From assembly GCA_041749335.1 (NCBI GenBank), contig JBGTBM010000003.1, positions 1 to 58,767 on the forward strand: a stretch of DNA of 58,767 nt, written 5' to 3'. Both the position numbers and the translations under genes were made by a program. The number at the start of each line of letters is the position of its first letter. Within the stretch, counting starts at the first letter, position 1. Below, piece after piece: positions 7,360-34,723 of the stretch. Source of the stretch: Patescibacteria group bacterium (lineage in GTDB: Bacteria; Patescibacteriota; JABMPQ01). The notes beneath the pieces were generated by a model. That model saw nothing but the letters and a program-made list of their open reading frames with translations, had not been told where the DNA came from and ran no database searches.

Positions 7360-7682
7360 CCCCTTTCGTTGATTTTTATTTTATAAATCATTTTTCCGTT
7401 TATGCTTTATTATTATATAGCAACTTGCTGTTTAGAAAATAATATTTTATCCACAGAAATATAATTTATCATAGCTTATTTAAGCGTAATTAACAATGTG
7501 TATAGTTTTTTTATAAGAAATCTTTACTATTTAGCCAATTTATATTTATTAACGCTGTTTATATTTTGCAGTGTTTATCAAAATAAAAATTGATGTTTTT
7601 TACGATTCGTGCAGTTAATTTCATCAGATAATATTGTTGCAATTGCCTTGAAATATGCTATATTGATTTACTATTTAAACTC

Positions 7683-7934
7683 ATGGATAAAAAAAATAAT
7701 TTTCAAAAAGTTACGCTAACGAAATTTGAAGGCGAATGTGCCGTCTTGAAGCTTAATAGCGGAGAAGAAATAAAGTGGCAAAAAAGCAAACTTCCTGATA
7801 ATCTTAAGATAGGAGATGTTTTTTATCTAATCGCCCAAGCAAATTTATTATCTGAAGAAAAAAATCAGCAGCAAATCGCCGCTCGCCTCCTAGAGGAAAT
7901 TTTAAATGGAAACGAAGAAAAAGAAAAATCATAA
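7683..7934 (+). CDS. DUF3006-like small protein
   Basis: 83 aa. The N-terminus FEGECAVLKL...LP..LKIGDVF resembles DUF3006. The 3' end overlaps the next gene. Confidence 0.4.
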   Translation: MDKKNNFQKVTLTKFEGECAVLKLNSGEEIKWQKSKLPDNLKIGDVFYLIAQANLLSEEKNQQQIAARLLEEILNGNEEKEKS

Positions 7935-18622: not shown

Positions 18623-21274
18623 TTAGCCTTCAATTGTTTTTATTTCTTTTTCTGTCAATCCATAGAGTTTGTAGATCGCTTCGTCAATATCTCGATCAAG
18701 TTTTTCTATTTCAAGCTTTAGCGAATTATGTTTGTCTGTGTTTTCGGAAGTTGCTTGCAGTTCTTTGTGAAGTTCGAGCAATTTTTGCACTTTTTTAGCA
18801 ATATTTTCTTGTTCTTCTTGTCTAGCGTTCGGTATTGGAATATTTTTCAAAAAATTTATTGGATATTTTAGTGAACCTTGGGGAATTCTAATAGAATAAA
18901 AAGTTTTCAAATGAAACCAATTTAATAAAGTTGAATTTATCAAGCCACATAAAAAATAAATGTTTAATTCTTTATTTGGAATTATCCCATGAACAGCAAC
19001 TAAAAGACCTGCACCCTTTTTGTCTACAATTACTGATAATCTCTTTGCAACACCCCTAATAATTAGTTTGGGTTTCTTTAAAAAGAAATCGATTGTATTT
19101 TTATTTAAATAATCTCCATCTTTTTTAATATAAGGTTTTAAATATTTTTTCTTGTACAAATTAATTTCTTCAATACCCCAAACATCTAAATAACGTCTTA
19201 TATTTCCATTAGTATAAATTCTTATGCTGTTCTTGACTTCTCCATCTGTAATTATCTTATTCATTTTCCAATACTCAAATCCCATTATTCCCGTTCTAAC
19301 ATTCGCTAACTGATAAAGTTTCCTATTTTTATTTATTTTGTCCAAAATTTCTTTTGCCTCTATGTCTTGATCGGTCTGTATTCTGCCCATTTCATCATAT
19401 AAGGATTCAAGTTGAAAAGATTTTTTATTTTTAATTATTTCAGTTTTTATTTTTTTGTCACCTTTTTTAATTTTTCTTATTATGATTACTACGGTTGAAA
19501 TGGCAGCATCAGCAAATACTTTTTCATCTTTTAAGTCCCATATTTTTAAAATCTCAATATTGCTATTCTGTAAATAATTTCTGATTTTCTTGCCATAATC
19601 CGCACCAAAAAATTTATTTGGGCAAATAAAACCTAAATAACCACCATCTTTAAGCAGTTTTAATGATTTTTCTATAAAAACAACATATAGATCTGCGCCT
19701 TGAGAAAATTTATATTCTCTTGAAACATAATCCCTAAATTTTATATCTTGTTTTTTTACTCCCACATACGGCGGATTCCCGATAATCACGTCAAAGCCGC
19801 CCTGTTCAAAAACTTTTTTATATTCTTCGGCAAAATTAAATGGCTTTTGTTCCCGCAACTTTTTACCAAAATACTTTTCTAACTCTTCGTTATTTCCCGA
19901 TACCAACGAATTTCCGACTCTAATATTATGTTGAAGTGTCGGTAATGGAGTTCGCTGAGTTAAAACTTTAAGCAATAAATTAAGCTGAGCGATTTCCACC
20001 GCTTGCGCATCAAGGTCAACGCCGAAAATATTTTCTTTTAAGATATTAAATTTGGTAAATAGAGAAGTTTGTGGATTTTGTTTTGTCAAAGTTTTTAAAA
20101 TTTTATCATAAGCGGCAATCAGGAAAGAGCCGGAACCACACGCCGGATCAAGCACCTTGATGTCTTTTATTTTTTTGGGCTTGGTCTTTTTCAAAACTTC
20201 GCCCAAAGTTTCTTTTACGATAAATTCAACAATATATTTAGGCGTATAATAAATTCCTTGCGACTTACGTTTGGATTTTTTTGCTTCTTCTTGTTTTCTG
20301 CCTTGCACAAAACTTAAATATTGCTCATAAATTCCGCCCAATACATCCGCGGAAATGACAGAAAAGTCATAGCGATAGCCGTCTGTGGTTTCGTATAAAC
20401 CTTTTAAAACCGCTTCTACGGTCATATCGTCCAATTTCCACTCTTCTGAGTAGTGGGGAGTAAATAATTTTGAATCAAATTCAATATCAAAATTACGGAA
20501 TATTTTCACAAGTTGTTTATAATAGCCATTTTTACCACCACGAGTAATACTTTCCAACACCCTATTTACAATATCTCGATCTTCAGCCGTACGGATAAAA
20601 ATAAGACGATCAAGAATTCTTTGTACTCCTTCGTCTAATTCTTCATCGGTTAAATCGTTTTGTTTTTTGAAATCTTTCGTTAGTAAATCACGCCAATCCT
20701 TAAAATCTTCAAAAAGTTTTTCACCGACTTGCTTTCTTTTGGTAAGCTTGCCCCACTTTTGCGCTTCTTTTTCTAAAAGCTTCTGTTCAAAGCCTTCTTT
20801 TGATAAAAGCCAGAGCTGATCAAAACGATCATTATATTCTTGGCACTTTAAATCAATAAATAGATTTTGCGATATGTTTTTGGGCGGCATTTCAGAATTT
20901 AATATTTTGATTCCTTCAAAATCTGTTAGCACCGCCCACGAAACGCCCTTATTCCAACTATAACTTATTGCCTGCTCGGCCCATTGCCATTTATCCAAAT
21001 CAACTTTCATCGCCTTTGCTTCTAAAAAGAAAACATAGATATTGCCAAGCTTGAAAGCTAAATCAACCCTTCCGCCGGTAACTCTTTCTTCTGTGGTTAC
21101 TTCATCTAAATTTTCAATATTTCTCATATCCCAGCCCAGATATTCAAATAGCGGATCAATAAAATCTTTTCTGGTTTGAGCTTCGTTATAAGATCTTATT
21201 TTTCCCTCATCTGCTATCTTTTGATATTTGTAAACCAGCTTTTGAATATTTTTTTTGGCTTCTTTTTTTGTCAT
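18623..21274 (-). CDS. type IIG restriction-modification enzyme (N-terminal PD-(D/E)XK nuclease + gamma-class N6-adenine methyltransferase + specificity region)
   Basis: Nuclease-like GGRVDLAF...FLEAKA. SAM-binding motif VLDPACGSGSFL. Catalytic motif IIGNPPY. Confidence 0.8.
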   Translation of the reverse strand: MTKKEAKKNIQKLVYKYQKIADEGKIRSYNEAQTRKDFIDPLFEYLGWDMRNIENLDEVTTEERVTGGRVDLAFKLGNIYVFFLEAKAMKVDLDKWQWAEQAISYSWNKGVSWAVLTDFEGIKILNSEMPPKNISQNLFIDLKCQEYNDRFDQLWLLSKEGFEQKLLEKEAQKWGKLTKRKQVGEKLFEDFKDWRDLLTKDFKKQNDLTDEELDEGVQRILDRLIFIRTAEDRDIVNRVLESITRGGKNGYYKQLVKIFRNFDIEFDSKLFTPHYSEEWKLDDMTVEAVLKGLYETTDGYRYDFSVISADVLGGIYEQYLSFVQGRKQEEAKKSKRKSQGIYYTPKYIVEFIVKETLGEVLKKTKPKKIKDIKVLDPACGSGSFLIAAYDKILKTLTKQNPQTSLFTKFNILKENIFGVDLDAQAVEIAQLNLLLKVLTQRTPLPTLQHNIRVGNSLVSGNNEELEKYFGKKLREQKPFNFAEEYKKVFEQGGFDVIIGNPPYVGVKKQDIKFRDYVSREYKFSQGADLYVVFIEKSLKLLKDGGYLGFICPNKFFGADYGKKIRNYLQNSNIEILKIWDLKDEKVFADAAISTVVIIIRKIKKGDKKIKTEIIKNKKSFQLESLYDEMGRIQTDQDIEAKEILDKINKNRKLYQLANVRTGIMGFEYWKMNKIITDGEVKNSIRIYTNGNIRRYLDVWGIEEINLYKKKYLKPYIKKDGDYLNKNTIDFFLKKPKLIIRGVAKRLSVIVDKKGAGLLVAVHGIIPNKELNIYFLCGLINSTLLNWFHLKTFYSIRIPQGSLKYPINFLKNIPIPNARQEEQENIAKKVQKLLELHKELQATSENTDKHNSLKLEIEKLDRDIDEAIYKLYGLTEKEIKTIEG

Positions 21275-23125: not shown

Positions 23126-23200
23126 TGGTGGGCCCAGCAGGGATCGAACCTGCGACAAATCGGTTATGAGCCGAGTGCTCTACCGCTGAGCTATGGGCCC
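23126..23200 (-). tRNA. tRNA with CAT anticodon (elongator Met or lysidine-modified Ile2), CCA encoded
   Basis: GGGCCCATAGCTCAGCGGTAGAGCACTCGGCTCATAACCGATTTGTCGCAGGTTCGATCCCTGCTGGGCCCACCA folds as a cloverleaf. G1-C72 argues against an initiator. Confidence 0.9.
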
Positions 23201-26751: not shown

Positions 26752-27930
26752 CTAGGTTTGAGGGAGCTGTTGCTTCTGGCTCCAAAAATAAAAAGGGTGC
26801 GAATAATTTAACCGATAAAATGTTTTGTGCGATCGGCCGTAGACGATCTTTTTTAAAACGCCCTGCCGCCGGAAAAAGGTCAGAATTTTCTCCAAGACCG
26901 GTAAACTCAGCCGCTCGGGAAAATCCTCCAGCTCAAACAGCAGAGTTTTAAGCGCTTTGAAATCTACATTGGCCTGGTTAATCTTAATTGTGCGATCCAT
27001 CTGATTAACCAAATACGCCATCAGGAGAATAAAGTCGTGAATCGTTTCGTCCGGATGTTCATAATCATCCGGGCCAAAATTCTTATCCAGCACCTTGAGC
27101 TCTTCGCCAGATTCCGGCTTAATTACCAGGACCTGGTCTGCCTGCTGCTGCAAGAGCGTGCCGCGATAGCGCCGCGCGGTCATCAGCACCACTTCCTTGC
27201 CATGATTCTTAAGTAATGCGAGGCAGGGTAGGAAGTCATGATCGGCCGTCGCCAGCACGACAGTGGTAATATACGGACAATAGGTGATGATCCAAAATAT
27301 TTTTCTCGTAATTACCGAGTCAACCACGTCTTTTGTATGGTCGGACTCGAAAAACATGCGCGGACAATCAATGATCTCATACCCGTAAGTATGAAGCTTA
27401 ACCCTTTCACTACGATCAATTCGTTGAGTATCAGTAAAAACCCAGGCGGCAGCCAAATCTCCCAGCGGCCGCACCAGATTGATAGCATTAAGCGGAGAAA
27501 AATTCTCTGCTAAATCGCTAAGTCCAATCTGGATATTGTCCCAATCAATCAGCAGCGCGATCTTTTTACCATTGGGCTTAACGCCGGGACAAACGTCCAC
27601 AAAGCGTGTTTCCAAGCCTAAACCGGGCTGCTTCTTATCTTCTCCGGTCAGAGTTAGCTTAATCTGATCGGGTAATTTTGCTTGATTGGGCGTGAGCCCG
27701 TATCCCCGGAAATTAGCTCCGGGCATAAAAAAAGTTTCCGGCTGTCTTGATCTAAGCTGCAATAAGCCCTTACTGACCAATTTTTTTCGAATAGCGGGGG
27801 AAAGTCCGAGAGACGTTATCACCTCGGAAAAATTATCTAATTTCCTTCCACCCTCCACTTCGACTCCCAGAGACCAAAGAATTTCCGCCACCTCTCTCCA
27901 TTCATGCTCTTTTTTCGCTGTTGCCAGCAC
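26752..27930 (-). CDS. NYN/LabA-like domain protein
   Basis: GTG start 5 nt after AGGAGG. KIALLIDWDNIQ ... VVLATADHDFLPCLALLKNHGKEVVLM fits the NYN (LabA-like) pattern. Noticeably G+C-richer than its neighbours. Confidence 0.55.
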   Translation of the reverse strand: MLATAKKEHEWREVAEILWSLGVEVEGGRKLDNFSEVITSLGLSPAIRKKLVSKGLLQLRSRQPETFFMPGANFRGYGLTPNQAKLPDQIKLTLTGEDKKQPGLGLETRFVDVCPGVKPNGKKIALLIDWDNIQIGLSDLAENFSPLNAINLVRPLGDLAAAWVFTDTQRIDRSERVKLHTYGYEIIDCPRMFFESDHTKDVVDSVITRKIFWIITYCPYITTVVLATADHDFLPCLALLKNHGKEVVLMTARRYRGTLLQQQADQVLVIKPESGEELKVLDKNFGPDDYEHPDETIHDFILLMAYLVNQMDRTIKINQANVDFKALKTLLFELEDFPERLSLPVLEKILTFFRRQGVLKKIVYGRSHKTFYRLNYSHPFYFWSQKQQLPQT

Positions 27931-28449: not shown

Positions 28450-28613
28450 TTGTTCCTCCTTATGTTTTTTAAAGATCAATCTTATTGTTTGCGCCTTAAT
28501 AGGAAATAATAACAAAATATTATCGGACGTCAAGACGCGGATCAATTAATATCATTATATTGCTAAAAGTAAAATAAAAAAACGCTTAGTATAACCAAAC
28601 GTTTTTGTGAATT

Positions 28614-30251
28614 TTATATTATCTCTTCTCTTTTTTCCCGCACAAAACCCAGCCATTGTTCGCCCAATTCAATCAGCATTTTAAAAGGCGCTTCAATTAA
28701 AAAATCAAAAACAAAAACAAAAACGTTAATTTTGGAAAATTCCTGGGAAATCCAACGCCCCGCCCGAAGAATCGGCAAAGTATACAAATCGAAAAACAAG
28801 CGTAAAATGCTATCCTTGCGGGCCGGAATTGAATATTCTTTGGCGCCTTCACGCACACGGAAACCAAAGAAACTAACCAAAGTTAAAAACATAAAAAATA
28901 CTATAGCGGAAGCGACGTTAAAATCCAACCTATAAAGCACATATCCCACCAAACCAAATGACACTAAAAAAGTAATAAAATAGGAAAATTTAAAAAACCA
29001 GCTTAAAAATTTACTGCGCACATATGAGGAATGAGCATTGAAAATAATGGTTTGTTTGCGATCAGAATAGACAATGCTTTTTATGCCGTTAATAATGCGC
29101 TCGGTATTTTTCTTGCCCGGCACGCGGGTAAACAAAGCCACTATCAACATTATGAAAAGAGGGAAAGCGATATTGATCGCAATCGGCAGCCATTTTACTT
29201 CTTTTAACCAATAAAGATCAACCGGCACTTCAATAATAATCGCCAGCAACATTTTGGTAATAAATAAATAGATAATACTGCGCAAAGCGGCCCGGCGTAA
29301 ATTTGATTTAACTTCTTTATATTTTTGCTCGGCCTTTTTTTCGATTTCATTTTGAAAAGCGGCGGGATCATTTAAAAGTCCCTCAATGCCATCAATATTA
29401 TCGGCCACCACATCTCTAAGAATTAAAAACAGGGGGGTGTATGTTTTCATTAAGCGCTTAAAACGAAAAGACAGCTTATTATTAAGATACCCTTCAATTT
29501 CTTCCTGAATGTTTTTTATGTTGCGAGCGACATTTTCAATTTCTTGCTTAGTGCCTCCGAACCATTCGCGATAAGCCAGTTTAAACATAAAATATCTAAT
29601 GGTGGCCGGATCGGATTTGATCAAAGTGCGATGAATGGCAATATAACACAAGATTTTTTTAGTAGCGTCGTCTAATCTAATATCTTTAATCTTAAGTCGC
29701 GCATCCATCACCTGAAACATGGTTTCCACAATAGCACCCACCGACCGCAAGGATATTAAAACATCTTCTATTTCACAGGAGGCGACGCCTATCACCCAAT
29801 CAATAAATTTTCTTTTATCTCGACGCTTGGCATATGTGGTGGCACTGATTAAATTTAAATATTTATTAATAATGCTTTGCACCTCAAGAATTTTTGTTTC
29901 GGGCAATTTATTATTTTCCAAATATTTAGCCCAGATCAGCTCCTTGACTAAATTTTCAGCTATTTTCGCTTTATTTTTATCAATCGTTATCCGGCGGCGC
30001 AAAATTCTTTCTACCGCGCTGCGCCGCAATAAATGTTTATCTTTATAATCAACCACGTTGCGCAATTTTTCATAAAAAAAAGCCATCTGGCTGACAAAAT
30101 GATCCACTTTAATTTTGCTTACATCTTTGGGTATTTCGTCTTTTTGCGAAAATGAATGTATTAAGTTTTTGACCGGCGCTGAAATATAATAGCTCATGTG
30201 ATTTATTAGTAGTAATACTATTATGATAATTTCTACCCGCTTTATTGTCAA
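28614..30251 (-). CDS. hypothetical polytopic membrane protein
   Basis: 545 aa. N-terminal TM, a long soluble helical region, then a C-terminal cluster of TM helices. No family recognised. Confidence 0.6.
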   Translation of the reverse strand: MTIKRVEIIIIVLLLINHMSYYISAPVKNLIHSFSQKDEIPKDVSKIKVDHFVSQMAFFYEKLRNVVDYKDKHLLRRSAVERILRRRITIDKNKAKIAENLVKELIWAKYLENNKLPETKILEVQSIINKYLNLISATTYAKRRDKRKFIDWVIGVASCEIEDVLISLRSVGAIVETMFQVMDARLKIKDIRLDDATKKILCYIAIHRTLIKSDPATIRYFMFKLAYREWFGGTKQEIENVARNIKNIQEEIEGYLNNKLSFRFKRLMKTYTPLFLILRDVVADNIDGIEGLLNDPAAFQNEIEKKAEQKYKEVKSNLRRAALRSIIYLFITKMLLAIIIEVPVDLYWLKEVKWLPIAINIAFPLFIMLIVALFTRVPGKKNTERIINGIKSIVYSDRKQTIIFNAHSSYVRSKFLSWFFKFSYFITFLVSFGLVGYVLYRLDFNVASAIVFFMFLTLVSFFGFRVREGAKEYSIPARKDSILRLFFDLYTLPILRAGRWISQEFSKINVFVFVFDFLIEAPFKMLIELGEQWLGFVREKREEII

Positions 30252-30327
30252 TAAGGCAATTTTATTCTGAAAATATTTTATTAACAGCTGATTTTTTTAT
30301 TGAAAATATTTATGTTATAATAATGAT

Positions 30328-30478
30328 GCCCGTTCAGGCGGGCGAGCAGTCAGTCTATTTGCTAACAAAAAAGGTGCCCTCCAGATTAAGATTGTAGCCA
30401 AAACTTTAACGGCAAAAAGCCTTTAAAGCCCAGGGCACGGGAAGTTGCAATCTTAATCTATTAGCAAAAGCTGGCTGC
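30328..30478 (-). ncRNA. candidate cis-regulatory/structured RNA with pseudoknot potential, upstream of the 545-aa membrane protein gene
   Basis: G+C-rich island. Helices 30346-30365/30461-30478, 30374-30380/30432-30438, a perfect 12 bp 30384-30395/30448-30459, and a 10-bp hairpin 30404-30428. The second and third helices interleave (H-type). Confidence 0.4.
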
Positions 30479-30545
30479 TTTTAGTTAAGCAAATTTCACA
30501 CGAATATCTAAAATTATATTCTTAATAAACGCTTTAAATAAAAAA

Positions 30546-30571
30546 GGACGTAAGCTAGAAAACTTACGTCC
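30546..30571 (-). terminator. terminator ending the G+C-rich island operon
   Basis: GGACGTAAG / CTTACGTCC stem followed by a U-run on the minus strand. Confidence 0.75.
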
Positions 30572-30605
30572 AAAGAGATGAAGAACGATGACAGGAAGGA
30601 GATGG

Positions 30606-30866
30606 CTAGGCGGCGGCGAGGAACTCTTCGAGCTCCTGCAAGGCGACCGAGGTGTCGAAGCCGAGGCTGGTATCCGGGGGAAGATCGAAGATCAGATCCA
30701 GGCGCCCGGTGTCATCGAGGTCGTGGTACAGTCCGGTCTCTTCCATGAAGAGATCGGCAACCCGCAGCAGGCGATCCGAGGCCTCTTCGACGAGTTCGGG
30801 CCGTTCGCTTCCGGCGATGAACCGCGATCCGCGCTTGAAAACAGTCCGAAAATTCTCCACTGTCAT
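30606..30866 (-). CDS. hypothetical acidic 86-aa protein
   Basis: MTVENFRTVFKRG... preceded by AAGGAG. G+C-rich codon usage. The overlapping plus-strand ORFs lack RBSs. Confidence 0.6.
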   Translation of the reverse strand: MTVENFRTVFKRGSRFIAGSERPELVEEASDRLLRVADLFMEETGLYHDLDDTGRLDLIFDLPPDTSLGFDTSVALQELEEFLAAA

Positions 30867-30987
30867 GTCGCTTTCTCCTTTCTTCTGTTTGAGTAAAAGA
30901 TCTCTACAAAAACTACAATTAAAATAATTACAATCTTTGGTGGGAGCACGTTGTAGAAAACGTGCTGGTGAAAAGTTCAAAGAAGGG

Positions 30988-31209
30988 CTAGGCCAGGATG
31001 TCGGTGTTTTGCATCTGGAACATGATGTACAGATCGGGTCGACGGAAGGTGGCTCGGTACGGAATGCCAAGGCTCTGCATCTGCTCGTCGTGCAGGGCGA
31101 ACATCAGCTCCGCCGCCGTCTGCAGATTCATGATGAAATTTTGCAGCTGGATCTCGCCGGCGAACGGGCAGGAATTGAACAGCCTTTCCATCTCTTTTTC
31201 CCTGCTCAT
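30988..31209 (-). CDS. hypothetical 73-aa protein
   Basis: MSREKEMERLFNS... preceded by AGGAGG at good spacing. Confidence 0.6.
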   Translation of the reverse strand: MSREKEMERLFNSCPFAGEIQLQNFIMNLQTAAELMFALHDEQMQSLGIPYRATFRRPDLYIMFQMQNTDILA

Positions 31210-31360
31210 CTTTTTCTCCTCCTGGTTTAGATCTGTGATTGCGATTGAAAGAACTTTGTCTCTAACCAAGCAAACAATTTTTTACTTGCTTGGTTTGGGA
31301 CAAGGTTTTTAAGTCTACCTTGTCTTTTTGTATCTCCTTTTTTAAAAGAACGTTGAATGA

Positions 31361-31450
31361 TTACATCCGCCGCAGAATAGCGCGAGCGATCAGGTTGGCG
31401 GTGAACATGACAGAAATCGTTGCGATCGCGGGCAGCATGGCGCTCATCAT
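31361..31450 (-). CDS. 29-aa hydrophobic peptide (MMSAMLPAIATISVMFTANLIARAILRRM)
   Basis: Not in the ORF track because it is too short. AGGAGG lies 4-5 nt upstream of the ATGATG. One predicted TM helix with a basic C-terminus. Confidence 0.5.
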   Translation of the reverse strand: MMSAMLPAIATISVMFTANLIARAILRRM

Positions 31451-32880
31451 ACTTCCTCCTAAAAAAGATGCTCTGAAAAAAACTCTCCTAAACAAACGAT
31501 TTTAACGATCACTTGCTTGGGAAAGTGGACGCGGTGTGCAAACTCGAGATGAGCTTGCATGGATTGCACTGTGCGTGCAATGCGTCCAAGAATGCAAAGA
31601 GCAGCTGTAGAGAAAGGAACTCTGGCAAGAGTAGCGTAGAGTGATTGGGCACTGGCTCTTATAGAGACGATGCTTGGTCTAGTATGGCGTCGGTTGACGT
31701 CAGAGACCAACGCCGGCTGCCAAGCTACCGCGAGAGCTAGCTTATGCCTGCTCCCCTAAAGCATCTCACTCTAGGGGGCGATGGTCATGGGCCAGTCCAT
31801 CCCTTCCTCCTTTTGTTGTGTGCTGCGTCGTTGCGGTAACCACGTCGTTTGGCTCCGGCAATGATGGCAGCGGATGATCTGCTTGAAGCGATGGCGTCGT
31901 TCTCCGGTGAGTGGTGCAGCTTGCTTTACCTACGCACCAGCGCCATGCGATGCCGCATGTTGCGCTCCTCCTTTCTCCCAAGTGATTCATATCAGTGGGA
32001 TTAAATTCGGTTGGCTGCAGGTCTTAAGCTTGATCGCCTCGCTGACAGCGTGCTTGGGTGACGGAAGACAAGCAGATCTACGTCCAGGTCATTTTCCTCT
32101 TCCTTTCTTTTGGGTTGCTTGAGAGAGATAAAGATGGAGGCAAGGTATAGGTTTAACAAGGCGATATAATATATGTCCCTTGGGTCCCTATATTTGCCCA
32201 GCATCTACATCTCCCCCAAACTTTGTAATGTGCATTTTCTAAATCCATTTAAACTAAATGGATTTAGAAAAAGCAGGGAAGCAAAGATTTTGATCTCGCT
32301 TCCCCGATAAAACTTATGTAATGTACAAAGGGTTCTGCTTCCCCATGGCTCACCACGGATTAAGGTCTTCCATTAATGGGCAGGTGACTCCCGGCTTACA
32401 ATTGCTTGCGAGGCTGCGAGGTTGTAAGCACCCCCGGATAGCTTATGTATCCACGCCAGAACGCTATCTTAATCTCTGACGCTTCCTGGTCAACACTCGA
32501 ATCACCCAGCTCTTTCTTTTCCTTTGTGGAGTAGGGCGCTAGACTTTCCAGCGCTCGTTGAAAGTTCTGCCGACTACGAGATCAGGGCCAGGTCATATTG
32601 CTGTTTTTCCCTTTGTTCGATCAGCTTATGTTGTCAAAAGCTCAAAGATGAGTACAAAATCTACCGGCTTATCAGGATAACTATCAATGTTACTTCAACC
32701 CGAGTTTCAAGTATTTCTGTACGCATCTTTGATTCTTTGACTTGTGAAAGAAAGTGATAAGAGCGGGCATGAGTTTAACAGGGCTTAATATTTTTTGATC
32801 CCTGGATCCTCATTAGGCTCCTCTCACATCACACTCTTCCCCAAATTTATTTTTAATGTTCTTCGCTCTTTTTTGATTAT
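31451..32880 (-). other. ORF-poor G+C-rich transcribed region (large ncRNA, long leader, or decayed foreign DNA)
   Basis: It lies downstream of a consensus promoter. No ORF longer than 83 aa occurs in any frame despite high G+C. It carries many local helices, an internal terminator-like hairpin (32276-32304 plus U-run), and a perfect 14-bp hairpin at 32237-32269. Confidence 0.4.
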
Positions 32881-32886
32881 CAAAGT

Positions 32887-32915
32887 ATATTAGCATATTA
32901 TATAATTATTGTCAA
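32887..32915 (-). promoter_or_regulatory. sigma-70-type promoter reading into the G+C-rich island
   Basis: Minus strand reads TTGACA - 17 nt - TAATAT. Confidence 0.6.
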
Positions 32916-33171
32916 TACCTTTTGTCATATATTTTATTTACTAATGCTATATTGGCTTAATTATAAGGTTTTCTAGCTTATTATTTTTGTTATTTTTTTA
33001 TTACACTTATATAATTTTTGTTGCAAATTATTTAAAATAAAACTTTTTTGGGACGGAACTTTATAAAAAATATCAGTCAAATTTTTTTTAAAATAATTTT
33101 CCTTATTGACAAAAAACTTCACTCTTTTAAAATGACATATTAAGTACAGTATTTTTCAAATAAAAATTTTT

Positions 33172-33221
33172 TTATCCGCACTTCCGAAAAGTTGTCCCTA
33201 GCTGTCCCCAGATTTTGCACA
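33172..33221. promoter_or_regulatory. DnaA-box-like sites upstream of dnaA
   Basis: TTATCCGCA (one mismatch to TTATCCACA) and TTTTGCACA in an A+T-rich spacer. Confidence 0.5.
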
Positions 33222-33310
33222 CCTTATAAACATATATTTTATACTTTCAATAATTTATTTGAGGTACAATGGGGTCAATCTTGCTTTTACTAATTTAGGT
33301 AAAATAAAAA

Positions 33311-34723
33311 ATGACAAACGATCAAATCTGGCAGGCTGTCTTGGGCGAATTAGAGCTCACTCTCAGCAAAGCCAATTTTATTACCTGGTTTAAAAACACC
33401 TTTATCGCAGCTAAAAATGAAGGTGAATATGTTATCGGGGTACCCAATGCATTTACCCGAGAGTGGCTGCAAAATAAATATCACAAAAATATATCGCGCG
33501 CCCTACTAAGTGTAACCTCTGAACGCATTACCAAGATTGGCTATGAAATTCATAACCATCGACCCATCGGCCCCCAGAATTTGATTCAAGATATCGGCAG
33601 AAAACCAAACGGACAGCCGGTTCAGCCGGTGGTTGAATTAAAAGAACAGCGACCCGCCGCTCCTTCCGCCACCTTTGCAGTATCAACGGAAAATAAAAAA
33701 TTAAATCCCCGCTATTTATTTGATAATTTTGTTGTCGGCGCCAATAACGAACTGGCTCACGCAGCCGCCAAGGCAGTAGCCAAAAGCCCCGGCACCGCTT
33801 ACAACCCGCTATTTATTTACGGCGGAGTGGGTTTGGGAAAAACTCATTTAATCCAGGCGATCGGCAATACCCTTTGCGTTGAACAAGACAAAAAGATTGT
33901 CTATGTCACTTGCGAAGAATTCACCGAAGATTTCATTAATTACATTCAAAAAGGCAAAGACGGTGAATCGGCCTTTAAAAACAGGTATCGCCAATGCGAC
34001 GTGCTTTTAATTGATGACATTCAATTTTTATCCGGCAAAGAAAGAACTCAAGAAGAATTTTTTCATACTTTTAATTCACTTTACCAATCAAATAAACAAA
34101 TTGTGCTAACTTCCGACCGGCCTCCCAAAGCGATTGCCGCTTTGGAGGACAGGCTGGTATCGCGTTTTGAAGGCGGCATGATCGCAGACATCGGCCTTCC
34201 CGACCTGGAAACCCGAAAGGTGATTTTAGGACGTAAATGCAATGAAAAAGGCATCAATATGCCCGACGAAGTGCTAAATTTTATTGCTAGCAACATCCAA
34301 CACAACATTCGCGAACTGGAAGGAGCACTAAGCACGGTAATTGCCCATTGCCAGTTACACAATATTAATCCGACCGAAGAAACAGCCAAATCGGTATTAT
34401 CTAATATTTTAACCAATCCTAACAAGAAGGCGCTTACTCCCAAACATATCATTAATATCGTTTCAGATTTTTATGATATCCAGTCCCACGATATGCTGGC
34501 CAAAAATCGCAAGAAAGAAGTAGCCTGGCCCAGACAAATCGCCATGTTTTTAATGAGGCGGGAAGGCAAATCCAGCTATCCTTCTATCGGTAGAGAATTG
34601 GGAGGCAGAGATCACACCACCGCCATTCACGCTTATGAAAAAGTCAACAAAGAAGTAGCTAAAAATGACGATCTGCGGCAAGAGATTGAAATTATTAGGC
34701 AGAAGTTATATATGCCGCAGTAA
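33311..34723 (+). CDS. dnaA: chromosomal replication initiator DnaA
   Basis: N-terminus WQAVLGELE, AAA+ Walker A GGVGLGKTHL, C-terminal DNA-binding domain RDHTTAIHAYEKV. Confidence 0.95.
   Translation: MTNDQIWQAVLGELELTLSKANFITWFKNTFIAAKNEGEYVIGVPNAFTREWLQNKYHKNISRALLSVTSERITKIGYEIHNHRPIGPQNLIQDIGRKPNGQPVQPVVELKEQRPAAPSATFAVSTENKKLNPRYLFDNFVVGANNELAHAAAKAVAKSPGTAYNPLFIYGGVGLGKTHLIQAIGNTLCVEQDKKIVYVTCEEFTEDFINYIQKGKDGESAFKNRYRQCDVLLIDDIQFLSGKERTQEEFFHTFNSLYQSNKQIVLTSDRPPKAIAALEDRLVSRFEGGMIADIGLPDLETRKVILGRKCNEKGINMPDEVLNFIASNIQHNIRELEGALSTVIAHCQLHNINPTEETAKSVLSNILTNPNKKALTPKHIINIVSDFYDIQSHDMLAKNRKKEVAWPRQIAMFLMRREGKSSYPSIGRELGGRDHTTAIHAYEKVNKEVAKNDDLRQEIEIIRQKLYMPQ

What the first reader, a model, noticed from the sequence alone, without database searches (positions are those of the whole stretch)
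30546..32915. G+C-rich island next to oriC: consensus promoter, ~1.4 kb of ORF-poor structured sequence, then SD-led micro-ORFs and small genes
Composition switches abruptly at about 32830 and about 30545.

On the minus strand, TTGACA-17-TAATAT (32887-32915) reads into about 1.4 kb in which no frame has an ORF longer than 83 aa. That is unusual for G+C-rich DNA.

About 600 nt in, there is a terminator-like hairpin plus U-run (32276-32304). A perfect 14-bp hairpin follows immediately (32237-32269). The first part (about 32270-32880) could therefore be a discrete RNA of about 600 nt, or an attenuator-controlled leader.

Further downstream there are five ORFs, each with a canonical AGGAGG-type Shine-Dalgarno:
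- MRHRMALVRR (31926-31958)
- MDWPMTIAP (31771-31800)
- a 29-aa hydrophobic peptide (31361-31450)
- a 73-aa protein (30988-31209)
- an 86-aa acidic protein (30606-30866)

The unit ends at a strong terminator (30546-30571).

I cannot assign any part of this to a known family. The size class of the first segment is that of large ornate RNAs (OLE, ROOL, GOLLD), but I cannot verify similarity by eye.
Basis: partly seen in the sequence, partly recalled or inferred. Interest (0 to 1): 0.7.

Follow-up and report, generated by a model that had tools for sequence, protein, structure and literature searches.

The report
Conserved structured RNA islet beside dnaA
A 2.4-kb stretch of foreign-looking DNA next to the replication gene dnaA of an uncultured Patescibacteria (CPR) bacterium is one transcription unit, about 60% of it conserved non-coding RNA that matches no known RNA family, followed by small genes of unknown function.

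Summary
Window 30546-32915 is a G+C-enriched islet read on the minus strand from a strong promoter to a strong terminator.

It is present in the only close relatives found: a 94.7%-identical strain, a lineage whose DnaA is 88% identical, and a 637-nt fragment from a third lineage. It is absent from relatives with 70-72% DnaA identity, where the flanking genes are about 500 nt apart.

The 1.4-kb ORF-poor part is neither decayed genes nor any Rfam family. Synonymous sites of the flanking genes are saturated (31-40% identity). The RNA modules keep 75-84% identity, with compensatory base-pair changes and no codon periodicity.

New features:
- Two paralogous copies of a novel ~105-nt hairpin, with 13 of 32 pairs covarying.
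- A 108-nt hairpin.
- A highly conserved 3' domain closed by a terminator hairpin.
- Two conserved 4-codon mini-ORFs (MTWP, MTWT) and a 9-codon uORF conserved in position.
- A repeated hairpin ("E") that brackets a cargo gene differing between lineages.

The 73-aa and 86-aa genes are real and have no detectable relatives of known function. MRHRMALVRR is not conserved.

Most likely the unit is a long modular ncRNA/leader plus small-protein operon on an acquired islet. Its cellular role is unknown.

The parts
32887..32915 (-). Sigma-70-type promoter, TTGACA-17-TGc-TAATAT.
   Evidence: Found. The -35 hexamer, the 17-nt spacing, the TGn and the -10 hexamer are conserved in L162 (TTGACA-17-TGa-TAGTAT).
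32265..32885 (-). RNA1: a ~610-nt structured non-coding module, running from the presumed start to the terminator-type hairpin and U-run.
   Evidence: MFE z-score is -5.0. RNAalifold against L162 gives 131 pairs, 18 of them compensatory. Substitutions show no codon periodicity. There is no Rfam hit.
32740..32844 (-). H1: copy 1 of a new ~105-nt hairpin motif. It has a purine-rich 5' arm, a pyrimidine-rich 3' arm and a conserved internal loop, GAYC / UUAAA.
   Evidence: Alignment A4 of 2 copies x 2 species has 13 of 32 pairs with compensatory changes. Covariance model R1 scores it at 103 bits.
32634..32740 (-). H2: a 108-nt hairpin.
   Evidence: All 35 predicted pairs are kept in L162, 3 with compensatory changes (helices 4-7). 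A structure predicted from the window sequence alone keeps 9 of its 13 changed pairs in L162.
32582..32596 (-). Mini-ORF 1: AUG ACC UGG CCC UGA (MTWP*), within the box AUGACCUGGCCC.
   Evidence: It is conserved in L162 with the stop kept by a different codon (TAG). Conservation ends at the stop codon. Translation is inferred, not shown.
32474..32581 (-). Variable linker of RNA1.
   Evidence: It is 31% identical to L162, the same as saturated 4-fold sites.
32313..32446 (-). Highly conserved 3' domain of RNA1, with blocks such as CCGGGGGUnCUUACAACCUCGnAGCCUCGCAAGCA and GUGGUGAGCCnUGGGGAAGCAGAnCCCUUUGUAC.
   Evidence: Blocks 32446-32377 (82%) and 32360-32313 (77%) are conserved against L162. No conserved reading frame exists on either strand (sequence inspection).
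32265..32306 (-). Intrinsic-terminator-type hairpin plus U-run.
   Evidence: Folded. It is kept in L162 with one compensatory C-G to U-A change, but with a weaker U-run.
32237..32269 (-). AU-rich near-perfect hairpin between a U-run and an A-run.
   Evidence: Seen (repeat I5). L162 has a hairpin with the same outer sequence and a different inner sequence at the equivalent place (L162 8791-8829).
32116..32219 (-). U2: copy 2 of the 105-nt hairpin motif.
   Evidence: R1 scores it at 106.5 bits. It lies in the 84%-identical block 32220-32107.
32078..32092 (-). Mini-ORF 2: AUG ACC UGG ACG UAG (MTWT*), with an SD (GAGGA / AAGGAG in L162).
   Evidence: It is identical in L162, within the conserved block 32092-32065.
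31830..32060 (-). Window-specific, G+C-rich 230-nt segment that holds MRHRMALVRR (31958-31926).
   Evidence: Absent from L162. It is not covered by L001.
31560..31830 (-). Conserved structured module containing a 9-codon uORF (31800-31771).
   Evidence: SD, AUG, length and stop position are kept in L162 (MFRLKITAS). A hairpin spans the stop codon. Of 54 predicted pairs, 11 are compensatory.
31490..31520 (-). E hairpin, copy 1: CCAAGCAAGUGA...AUCGUUUGUUU, just upstream of the cargo SD.
   Evidence: The pattern occurs only twice in the 58.8-kb window, against 0 expected, and three times in the L162 islet. The copies are aligned in A5 and A11.
31361..31450 (-). Cargo ORF: a 29-aa hydrophobic peptide, MMSAMLPAIATISVMFTANLIARAILRRM, with an AGGAGG SD.
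   Evidence: In L162 an unrelated 85-aa ORF occupies the same slot between two E hairpins.
31268..31293 (-). E hairpin, copy 2, downstream of the cargo ORF.
   Evidence: (repeat I4).
30988..31209 (-). p73: a conserved 73-aa protein gene.
   Evidence: L162 has the same length and 71% amino-acid identity. Changes are biased to the third codon position. GC3 is 0.81 against 0.37-0.44 in host genes. No family or fold match was found.
30880..30985 (-). p73-p86 intergenic element: two hairpins (AGCACGU..ACGUGCU, and a 14-bp stem that needs G-U pairs) plus the SD.
   Evidence: It is nearly invariant in four sequences, including the lineage whose p86 is only 48% identical. Fold z-scores are -3.4 to -4.4.
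30606..30866 (-). p86: a conserved 86-aa acidic protein gene.
   Evidence: Homologues are P0001 (97%), the L162 copy (64%) and P0122 (48%). Codon periodicity has p = 0.0002. AF2 gives pLDDT 85 and three helices, with no Foldseek or PDB match.
30546..30571 (-). Intrinsic terminator of the unit.
   Evidence: Found and conserved in four sequences with a compensatory change.

Best explanation
**What it is.** The region is a lineage-specific islet of about 2.4 kb with foreign base composition. It sits between a conserved small-RNA gene (30326-30486, plus strand) and the dnaA promoter of a Patescibacteria bacterium. It is a single minus-strand transcription unit.

**Order of parts**
1. A conserved strong promoter.
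2. About 1.4 kb of non-coding RNA under purifying selection, built from modules:
   - hairpin H1;
   - hairpin H2;
   - the 4-codon mini-ORF MTWP;
   - a free-evolving linker;
   - a highly conserved 3' domain closed by a terminator-type hairpin;
   - a second H1-like hairpin (U2) followed by the mini-ORF MTWT;
   - a module with a 9-codon uORF whose stop codon sits inside a hairpin.
3. A cargo gene bracketed by two copies of a short hairpin (E). The cargo differs between lineages. Here it is a 29-aa hydrophobic peptide.
4. Two conserved small proteins (73 and 86 aa), separated by an almost invariant double hairpin.
5. A terminator.

**How it most likely works (inferred).**
- Most transcripts end at the internal terminator (about 32270), giving an abundant ~610-nt structured RNA.
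- The fraction that reads through is controlled step by step by ribosomes on the mini-ORFs and the uORF and by the RNA structures.
- That control sets the expression of the cargo gene, p73 and p86.

**Shown:** the anatomy, the conservation, the covariation, the coding status of p73 and p86, the insertion status, and the absence of any known family.

**Inferred:** transcription itself, termination and read-through, translation of the mini-ORFs, and the cellular role.
For: **Insertion status.**
- The islet is present in L001 (94.7% nucleotide identity).
- It is present in L162 and L163 (DnaA 88% identical).
- It is partly present in L171.
- It is absent from L164-L168 and L170, where the 530-aa gene and dnaA lie about 500 nt apart.

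**Selection on the non-coding part.**
- Identity at 4-fold sites of dnaA, dnaN and the 545-aa gene between the window and L162 is 0.31-0.40.
- The RNA1 linker is 0.31 identical, while H1, H2, the terminator hairpin and U2 are 0.75-0.84 identical.

**Structure.**
- RNA1 has 131 consensus pairs, 18 of them compensatory. When the 3' partners are slid as a control, 0-2 remain.
- The H1/U2 motif has 13 of 32 pairs compensatory across paralogues and species.
- The uORF module has 11 of 54 pairs compensatory.
- Several helices need G-U pairs that exist only on the minus strand.

**Not coding.**
- RNA1 and the uORF module show no 3-nt periodicity in their substitutions, whereas p86 does (p = 0.0002).
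- A six-frame protein search of 31210-32900 against 5.8 billion proteins found nothing at E <= 1.
- The longest ORF equals the random expectation.

**Transcription signals.** The promoter and both terminators are conserved.

**Small ORFs.** The mini-ORFs and the uORF are conserved in position, with their SD and stop codons.

**Cargo cassette.** The cargo differs between the two E hairpins in the two lineages.

**p73 and p86.** They keep the same lengths, their changes are biased to the third codon position, and their GC3 is 0.76-0.81 against 0.37-0.44 in host genes.
Against: - Only two independent full-length sequences exist. RNAalifold on two sequences keeps only mutually compatible pairs, so the '100% paired' figure is by construction.
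- The structure predicted for the central and 3' parts from one sequence is mostly not kept in the other (20 pairs kept against 46 broken among changed pairs).
- There are no expression data.
- The U-run after the internal terminator is weak in L162 (CCUUUCC). A discrete 610-nt RNA may therefore not be general.
- No alternative (antiterminator) pairing was demonstrated.
- The conserved mini-ORF boxes could be RNA-level motifs rather than translated ORFs. A related box, GUCACCUGCCCA, has no AUG.
- Islet genes are slightly less diverged at 4-fold sites (0.50-0.58, small n). Part of the conservation could therefore reflect more recent exchange of the islet between lineages.
Confidence: 0.55

Rival explanations
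1. The RNA is itself the product. In this reading, a large structured ncRNA of about 0.6-1.4 kb works as a ribonucleoprotein with the co-transcribed small proteins p73 and p86, and perhaps a membrane peptide. OLE RNA works this way with OapA, OapB and OapC. It would not primarily be a regulator of those genes.
For: - The 3' domain has very high sequence conservation in stretches with few predicted pairs. That pattern is typical of tertiary or protein contacts.
- The 105-nt hairpins keep an invariant internal loop, GAYC/UUAAA, while their stems covary. This looks like a binding site.
- p73 and p86 are always linked to the RNA wherever sequence is available.
- The size class, the strong promoter and the adjacent small genes resemble the OLE-oapA arrangement (my own knowledge of OLE; not tested beyond Rfam).
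Against: - There is no similarity to OLE or to any other Rfam family.
- p73 and p86 have no recognisable RNA-binding or membrane features.
- The structure is dominated by long simple hairpins, not by an ornate multi-junction fold.
- The conserved SD-led mini-ORFs inside the RNA fit a leader better.
Confidence: 0.25
2. The islet is a remnant of, or a platform for, a mobile gene-capture element. In this reading the E hairpins are recombination sites (attC-like or repeat-mediated) that exchange cassettes. The structured RNA and the promoter are the element's own expression and regulatory apparatus. This reading does not exclude the best explanation.
For: - The islet has foreign composition, and it has a presence/absence polymorphism at a fixed site next to the 3' end of a small-RNA gene.
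- The cargo between two E hairpins differs between lineages: a 29-aa peptide in the window, an 85-aa ORF in L162.
- L162 carries extra modules, namely a third E copy, a tRNA-Leu(UAA) and a tRNA-like element.
- The window has a 13-nt perfect inverted repeat at both borders (repeat I2).
- A second G+C-rich foreign insert, an IS110-family transposase, lies in the same window.
Against: - None of the ORFs of 100 aa or more in the window that were scanned against Pfam matches an integrase, a recombinase or a reverse transcriptase. The exception is the IS110-family transposase 11 kb away.
- The E hairpins lack the integron GTTRRRY core (inspection).
- No direct repeats flank the islet, and the border inverted repeat is not clearly kept in L162.
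- Neither the DNA nor p73 and p86 match anything in the phage, plasmid or IMG/VR collections.
Confidence: 0.3
3. The unit is a type I toxin-antitoxin-like module. In this reading the 29-aa hydrophobic peptide is a membrane toxin, and the long structured upstream RNA keeps it untranslated.
For: - The peptide is 29 aa long, with a single hydrophobic helix and a basic C-terminus. Those are typical type I toxin features (my own knowledge).
- It has a strong SD preceded by a hairpin.
Against: - The peptide is not conserved. L162 has an unrelated soluble 85-aa ORF in that slot, while the RNA, p73 and p86 are conserved.
- No promoter-like site for an antisense RNA lies near it.
- This reading does not explain the ~1.2 kb of conserved RNA further upstream.
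Confidence: 0.08
4. The region is a pseudogene graveyard: the ORF-poor 1.4 kb consists of decayed genes from a high-G+C donor.
For: The composition is foreign, and many short ORFs occur in all frames.
Against: - A six-frame search found no protein similarity at E <= 1.
- Substitutions show no codon periodicity.
- Blocks stay 75-84% identical while neutral sites are saturated.
- Base-pair changes are compensatory.
Confidence: 0.03
5. The element acts at the DNA level and is tied to replication, given its position near dnaA and oriC. Examples would be an auxiliary origin, a DnaA-titration site or a partition site.
For: Its position is immediately upstream of dnaA.
Against: - It is absent from close relatives with the same dnaA region.
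- DnaA boxes are not enriched.
- The helices rely on strand-specific G-U pairs, and the promoter and terminators are conserved.
- G+C-rich sequence is the opposite of an unwinding element.
Confidence: 0.03

Closest known systems
OLE RNA with OapA, OapB and OapC (Bacillota): a large, abundant structured ncRNA co-located with genes for small partner proteins
   Same: - A structured RNA of about 600 nt.
- A strong promoter.
- Strong sequence conservation.
- Small protein genes immediately downstream in the same orientation.
- A narrow phylogenetic range.
   Different: - It does not match the Rfam OLE model.
- p73 and p86 match no family in the four profile libraries searched, and p86 lacks the multi-pass membrane character of OapA.
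- The fold is mainly long hairpins.
- It contains SD-led mini-ORFs and an internal terminator.
- It lies on an acquired islet.
Leader-peptide (ribosome-mediated) transcription and translation attenuators, such as the trp, tna, erm and cat leaders
   Same: - Very short SD-led ORFs upstream of a terminator-type hairpin.
- A uORF whose stop codon lies in a hairpin.
- Trp and Pro-stop codons in the mini-ORFs, which recall sensing or stalling leaders (my own knowledge).
   Different: - It is far longer, at about 1.4 kb, and is multi-module.
- The first mini-ORF is about 280 nt from the terminator.
- No antiterminator alternative has been shown.
- The regulated genes have unknown function.
Integron cassette arrays, or CALINs
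   Same: - One upstream promoter.
- Co-oriented small, SD-led, promoterless ORFs of unknown function.
- Imperfect hairpin repeats at cassette borders.
- Cassette content that differs between close lineages.
   Different: - No IntI was found among the ORFs of 100 aa or more scanned in the 58.8-kb window.
- The E hairpins lack the GTTRRRY/RYYYAAC cores.
- Only one variable slot has been seen.
- Most of the unit is conserved non-coding RNA.
Genomic islets inserted next to tRNA, tmRNA or small-RNA genes
   Same: - Atypical G+C content and GC3.
- A presence/absence polymorphism at a fixed site just beyond the 3' end of a conserved small-RNA gene.
- The L162 copy carries a tRNA gene.
   Different: - No integrase.
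- No flanking direct repeats.
- A very small size, 2.4-3.4 kb.

Membership tests
OLE, ROOL, GOLLD, HEARO and raiA large ncRNAs (Rfam) | A match to the family covariance model at or near its gathering score. | tested here: not met
   The whole window at gathering score gave only a tRNA at 23129-23200. E-value mode was run on 30200-33300, on RNA1 alone, and on the L162 orthologue. It returned only chance miRNA, snoRNA and sRNA hits of 25 bits or less.
Group I and group II introns | A covariance-model match (catalytic core or domain V), and for mobile group II introns an intron-encoded reverse transcriptase. | tested here: not met
   No Rfam hit. No ORF in the islet exceeds 93 aa on the minus strand, and none matched Pfam at relaxed thresholds.
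Integron or CALIN cassette array | An IntI tyrosine recombinase with attI next to the array. | tested here: not met
   None of the ORFs of 100 aa or more in the window that were scanned against Pfam matches a tyrosine recombinase. The only transposition gene is the IS110-family transposase at 43406-44716. CALINs lack IntI by definition, so this test alone does not exclude a CALIN.
Integron or CALIN cassette array | attC sites: imperfect palindromes with R''/R' cores (RYYYAAC ... GTTRRRY) at each cassette border. | tested here: not met
   The E hairpins are imperfect palindromes at cassette borders. Their 3' ends read GUUUGYUUAGG or GGUUAGAG, which does not fit GTTRRRY (inspection). The dedicated attC covariance model of IntegronFinder was not available.
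Integron or CALIN cassette array | Co-oriented promoterless cassettes whose content varies between strains. | tested here: inconclusive
   One slot between two E hairpins differs between the window (29-aa ORF) and L162 (85-aa ORF). Only two genomes are available.
Leader-peptide attenuator | A short translated ORF with an SD upstream of the regulated genes. | tested here: inconclusive
   MTWP*, MTWT* and the 9-codon uORF are conserved in position with their SD and stop codons. Translation was not tested.
Leader-peptide attenuator | An intrinsic terminator, or an SD-sequestering helix, downstream of the leader ORF. | tested here: met
   A terminator-type hairpin at 32306-32265 is conserved with a compensatory change. 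A hairpin spans the uORF stop codon, and a predicted helix pairs the uORF's SD with a downstream CU-rich stretch.
Leader-peptide attenuator | Mutually exclusive terminator and antiterminator structures coupled to ribosome position. | not tested
   No conserved alternative pairing was established. Inspection showed only a near-duplicate of the terminator's 5' arm (GGGGAAGCAGA) about 35 nt upstream.
Type I toxin-antitoxin | A small hydrophobic toxin conserved with its locus, plus a cis-encoded antisense RNA. | tested here: not met
   The 29-aa peptide is absent from the L162 islet. No plus-strand promoter-like site lies near 31361-31450.
Horizontally acquired genomic islet | Atypical composition together with absence from related genomes at a conserved site. 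| tested here: met
   GC3 is 0.76-0.81 against 0.37-0.44 in host genes. Empty sites exist in L164, L167 and L170.
Horizontally acquired genomic islet | An integrase and flanking direct repeats (att sites). | tested here: not met
   No integrase was found. The only flanking direct repeat is a 12-mer at chance level that belongs to promoter -35 contexts (repeat D10).

The most novel reading that the evidence does not exclude
The islet would represent a new class of RNA-centred genetic element in CPR bacteria. It would be a large modular structured RNA, with repeated 105-nt hairpins and translated 4-codon mini-ORFs. This RNA would act as both the sensor and the expression platform for an exchangeable gene cassette delimited by dedicated hairpin repeats. 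In effect this would be an integrase-less, integron-like capture-and-control device carried with two dedicated small proteins, p73 and p86.
Probability: 0.12. Interest if true: 0.8.

Novelty: new variant of a known kind. Interest (0 to 1): 0.6.

Why it matters
Large, conserved non-coding RNAs are rare in bacteria, and each class found so far has opened new biology. CPR/Patescibacteria are uncultured, have reduced genomes, and their RNA biology is almost unknown.

Here about 1.4 kb of non-coding sequence is retained under clear purifying selection in a very small genome. It combines several features not described together before:
- a repeated hairpin motif supported by covariation;
- four-codon ORFs conserved down to the stop codon;
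- a cargo slot bounded by hairpins.

If the RNA proves to be a ribosome-sensing leader, it gives a compact natural example of multi-stage attenuation. If it is a ribonucleoprotein with p73 and p86, it defines a new RNA class and two new protein families.

The practical limit is the very narrow known distribution: two full copies and two fragments.

Tried and rejected
- **Rfam.** Searches at gathering and E-value thresholds on the window, on RNA1 alone and on the L162 orthologue gave no family.
- **Nucleotide search of the islet.** blastn against plasmids and phages gave nothing.
- **BLASTX-style search.** A concatenated six-frame query plus p73 against 5.8 billion proteins gave nothing at E <= 1. 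The caveats are that the search depends on a word index and uses an unusual concatenated query. It also missed p73 orthologues, because gene callers had mis-called them.
- **Exact look-ups.** DnaA and p86 of the window are not on record.
- **dnaA-anchored scans.**
  - Scans of GTDB genomes and JGI metagenomes returned only relatives with DnaA 55% identical or less. None had the islet.
- **Covariance model R1 (H1/U2).** It found no further copies in 170 loci totalling 2.5 Mb.
- **IMG/VR.**
  - Three RNA patterns gave no hits.
  - The E-hairpin pattern gave four hits, judged to be chance matches.
  - Profiles of p86 and p73 gave nothing.
- **Protein families and folds.**
  - Pfam, PHROGs, NCBIfam and PADLOC gave nothing for p86, p73 and p29.
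  - The L162 cargo ORFs and the L162 copies of p73 and p86 were run against Pfam, and the two cargo ORFs also against PADLOC. The only result was a sub-threshold zinc-ribbon match for the 84-aa L162 ORF.
  - AF2 plus Foldseek against the PDB, and PDB sequence profiles, gave no meaningful match.
- **Ideas considered and dropped.**
  - RNase P, SRP, 6S and tmRNA. A few short motif resemblances seen by eye were not conserved in L162, and neither Rfam nor ARAGORN gave a hit.
  - Terminal inverted repeats of a transposon. The 13-nt border repeat in the window is not kept in L162.
  - The 12-nt direct repeat D10 as an att site. It is at chance level and belongs to promoter -35 contexts.
  - Short conserved reading frames inside the 3' domain. 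They are interrupted in one or the other species.

Full report
**Context**

The window comes from a Patescibacteria (CPR) bacterium.
- DnaA (33311-34723, plus strand) and DnaN follow the finding.
- The best DnaA matches in GTDB genomes and JGI metagenomes are only 53-55% identical, and most of the top matches are CPR MAGs.
- The large protein collection holds closer relatives: 88-89% identical (unnamed) and 70-73% identical. The named ones among the latter are labelled Patescibacteria or Parcubacteria group.
- The window mean G+C is 39.5%.

**Observation**

- G+C rises to 0.36-0.58 between about 30550 and about 32830, with very AT-rich flanks.
- TTGACA-17-TAATAT with a TG extension lies at 32915-32887 on the minus strand.
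- No ORF exceeds 83 aa in 31451-32880.
- A terminator-type hairpin with a U-run is directly followed by a near-perfect AU-rich hairpin.
- The five SD-led ORFs are there.
- A strong terminator lies at 30571-30546.

One correction is needed. An 83-aa longest ORF is exactly what shuffled sequence gives (88 +/- 22). The stretch is therefore 'ORF-poor' only in the sense that it is non-coding.

**Relatives and insertion status**

- p86 has one close homologue, on a 2.6-kb Logan contig (L001). The contig is 94.7% identical to window 28577-31137.
- The 88%-identical DnaA lies on an 89.5-kb ENA contig (L162, with an identical Logan copy L163). There, 3.85 kb separate the orthologue of the 545-aa membrane-protein gene from dnaA. 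The islet is present and partly alignable.
- In relatives with 70-72% DnaA identity (L164-L168 and L170), the same two genes are about 500 nt apart.
- Aligning these empty sites shows a conserved plus-strand small-RNA gene (window 30326-30486, promoter TGTTATAAT) followed almost at once by the dnaA promoter. The islet lies between the two.
- A 637-nt ENA contig (L171) from a third lineage carries a 48%-identical p86, the same upstream double hairpin and the same terminator.

The unit is therefore a lineage-specific insertion.

**Is the non-coding part functional?**

- Between the window and L162, 4-fold degenerate sites of dnaA, dnaN and the 545-aa gene are 31-40% identical, which is saturation.
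- Inside the islet, a 108-nt linker (32581-32474) is also 31% identical.
- The modules around it are far more conserved: H1 77%, H2 75%, the mini-ORF box 81%, blocks of the 3' domain 77-82%, the terminator hairpin 76% and U2 84%.
- Substitutions in RNA1 and in the uORF module show no 3-nt periodicity, whereas those in p86 do (p = 0.0002).
- A six-frame protein query covering 31210-32900 found nothing at E <= 1 in 5.8 billion proteins.

The pseudogene-graveyard alternative is therefore rejected.

**RNA structure**

- RNA1 folds with z = -5.0 against shuffles.
- With L162, RNAalifold gives 131 pairs, 18 of them with compensatory changes. Structures with slid partners give 0-2.
- With two sequences this is partly by construction. 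I therefore also projected the single-sequence MFE structure onto the other species.
  - H1 and H2 hold: 6 pairs kept against 4 broken, and 9 kept against 4 broken, among changed pairs.
  - The predicted pairing of the central and 3' parts does not hold: 20 kept against 46 broken.
- The best evidence comes from a paralogue. The block downstream of the internal terminator (U2, 32219-32116) is a second copy of H1. The four sequences (2 copies x 2 species) share one fold, with 13 of 32 pairs covarying and an invariant internal loop GAYC/UUAAA.
- A covariance model of this motif finds only these copies in the window, in L162 and L163, and in 2.5 Mb of other dnaA loci.
- The module at 31830-31560 has 11 of 54 pairs compensatory.
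- The AU-rich hairpin at 32269-32237 is replaced in L162 by a hairpin with the same outer sequence and a different, still complementary, inner sequence.
- Several helices need G-U pairs that exist only in the minus-strand transcript.
- The promoter is conserved in its -35, its 17-nt spacing, its TGn and its -10.

**Small ORFs**

- p86 and p73 keep their exact lengths in L162 (64% and 71% amino-acid identity). Their changes are biased to the third codon position. GC3 is 0.76-0.81 against 0.37-0.44 in host genes. They are real genes with foreign codon usage.
- The p73-p86 spacer (two hairpins plus the SD) is almost invariant in four sequences. It is more conserved than p86 itself.
- MDWPMTIAP has a positional counterpart of the same length in L162 (MFRLKITAS), with the SD, and with its stop codon inside a conserved hairpin.
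- MRHRMALVRR lies in a 230-nt segment that L162 lacks.
- The 29-aa hydrophobic peptide is replaced in L162 by an unrelated 85-aa ORF.
The boxes AUGACCUGGCCC-UGA (32596-32582) and AUGACCUGGACG-UAG (32092-32078) are SD-preceded 4-codon ORFs (MTWP*, MTWT*). One follows each 105-nt hairpin. Both are conserved in L162, and the first keeps its stop through a TGA-to-TAG change, after which conservation ends.

**Cassette-like slot**

- A short hairpin (E: CCAAGYAARYRA-loop-AUYGUUUGYUU) occurs twice in the window and nowhere else in its 58.8 kb, against 0 expected. It occurs three times in the L162 islet.
- In both genomes the variable cargo ORF lies between two E copies.
- L162 additionally carries a tRNA-Leu(UAA) and a tRNA-like element after its second E copy.
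- None of the ORFs of 100 aa or more scanned in the window matches an integrase or reverse transcriptase. The only mobility gene is an IS110-family transposase in a separate 60%-G+C insert at 43406-44716.

**Comparison with known systems**

- No Rfam family matches in either orthologue. The islet is therefore not a member of OLE, ROOL, GOLLD, HEARO, raiA or the group I/II introns.
- p73, p86 and the cargo ORFs match nothing in the profile libraries each was run against. All three were tried against Pfam and PADLOC, and p73, p86 and the window's 29-aa cargo also against PHROGs and NCBIfam. The sole exception is the sub-threshold zinc-ribbon match of the 84-aa L162 ORF.
- p73 and p86 also match nothing in the phage, plasmid or IMG/VR collections.
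- p86 gives no PDB sequence-profile match, and the AF2 models of p73 and p86 give no meaningful Foldseek match against the PDB.
- Functionally, the nearest analogies are:
  - OLE-type 'large RNA plus small partner proteins' loci;
  - multi-stage leader-peptide attenuators;
  - for the E-bounded slot, integron-like cassettes.

**Interpretation**

The best-supported reading is an acquired islet that encodes a long modular structured RNA. It is probably made both as a ~610-nt terminated species and as a read-through leader. Ribosomes on the mini-ORFs, together with the RNA structures, would set expression of the downstream cargo, p73 and p86.

Transcription, termination, mini-ORF translation and the cellular role are all inferred. 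The main weakness is the tiny number of homologues. Those scans did deliver the decisive presence/absence evidence.

Noticed in passing
window 30326-30486 (+), promoter 30313-30321: A conserved small-RNA gene of about 160-200 nt on the plus strand, with a TGTTATAAT promoter. Its core is a long helix, AGAUUAAGAYUGUAAC / GUUGCAGUYUUAAYCU, with some covariation. It lies between the 530-aa membrane-protein gene and dnaA in every relative examined, with or without the islet (L162, L164, L167, L169 and L170). No Rfam family matches it. The islet is inserted just beyond its 3' end.
   Followed up: partly
window 43406-44716 (-): A second G+C-rich patch (60% G+C) encodes a 436-aa IS110-family transposase (PF02371). 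A long antisense ORF is also open. No gene of this kind was called in the corresponding part of L162. It shows that high-G+C foreign DNA enters this genome.
   Followed up: partly
L162 7760-7841 (-) and about 7665-7752 (-): The L162 copy of the islet contains a tRNA-Leu(UAA) gene. It is followed by a tRNA-like element with a 7-bp acceptor stem and a T-arm identical to that of the tRNA-Leu, but an aberrant middle. Neither ARAGORN nor Rfam calls it.
   Followed up: partly
L162 6652-6906 (-): An extra AT-rich 84-aa ORF with two CxxCxGxG zinc-ribbon motifs lies between the islet terminator and the small-RNA gene, in L162 only. It gives sub-threshold hits to Anti-TRAP and the DnaJ central domain.
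   Followed up: no
window 30551-30563 and 32968-32980: A 13-nt perfect inverted repeat, TAAGCTAGAAAAC (28 nt at 79%), sits at the two borders of the islet. One arm lies inside the end terminator and the other about 55 nt upstream of the promoter (repeat I2). It is not clearly kept in L162, and its meaning is unknown.
   Followed up: partly
window 32596-32585, 32092-32081, about 32392-32381, and 31800-31789: A recurrent box, (A/G)U(G/C)ACCUG(G/C)(C/A)C, occurs three to four times in the RNA. Two copies form the 4-codon mini-ORFs. One copy (GUCACCUGCCCA) has no AUG and resembles the 3' end of 16S rRNA (UCACCUCC). One copy starts the 9-codon uORF. The box may be an RNA-level motif rather than, or as well as, a coding one.
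   Followed up: no
window 26752-27930 (-): A gene for an NYN-domain (RNase-like) protein also has raised G+C (0.46-0.51) relative to its neighbours.
   Followed up: no
window 18623-21274 (-) and 42440-42826 (+): A type IIG/Eco57I-like fused restriction-modification methylase and a DUF559 (Vsr-like endonuclease fold) gene lie in the window. These are ordinary defence and mobile-DNA context.
   Followed up: no
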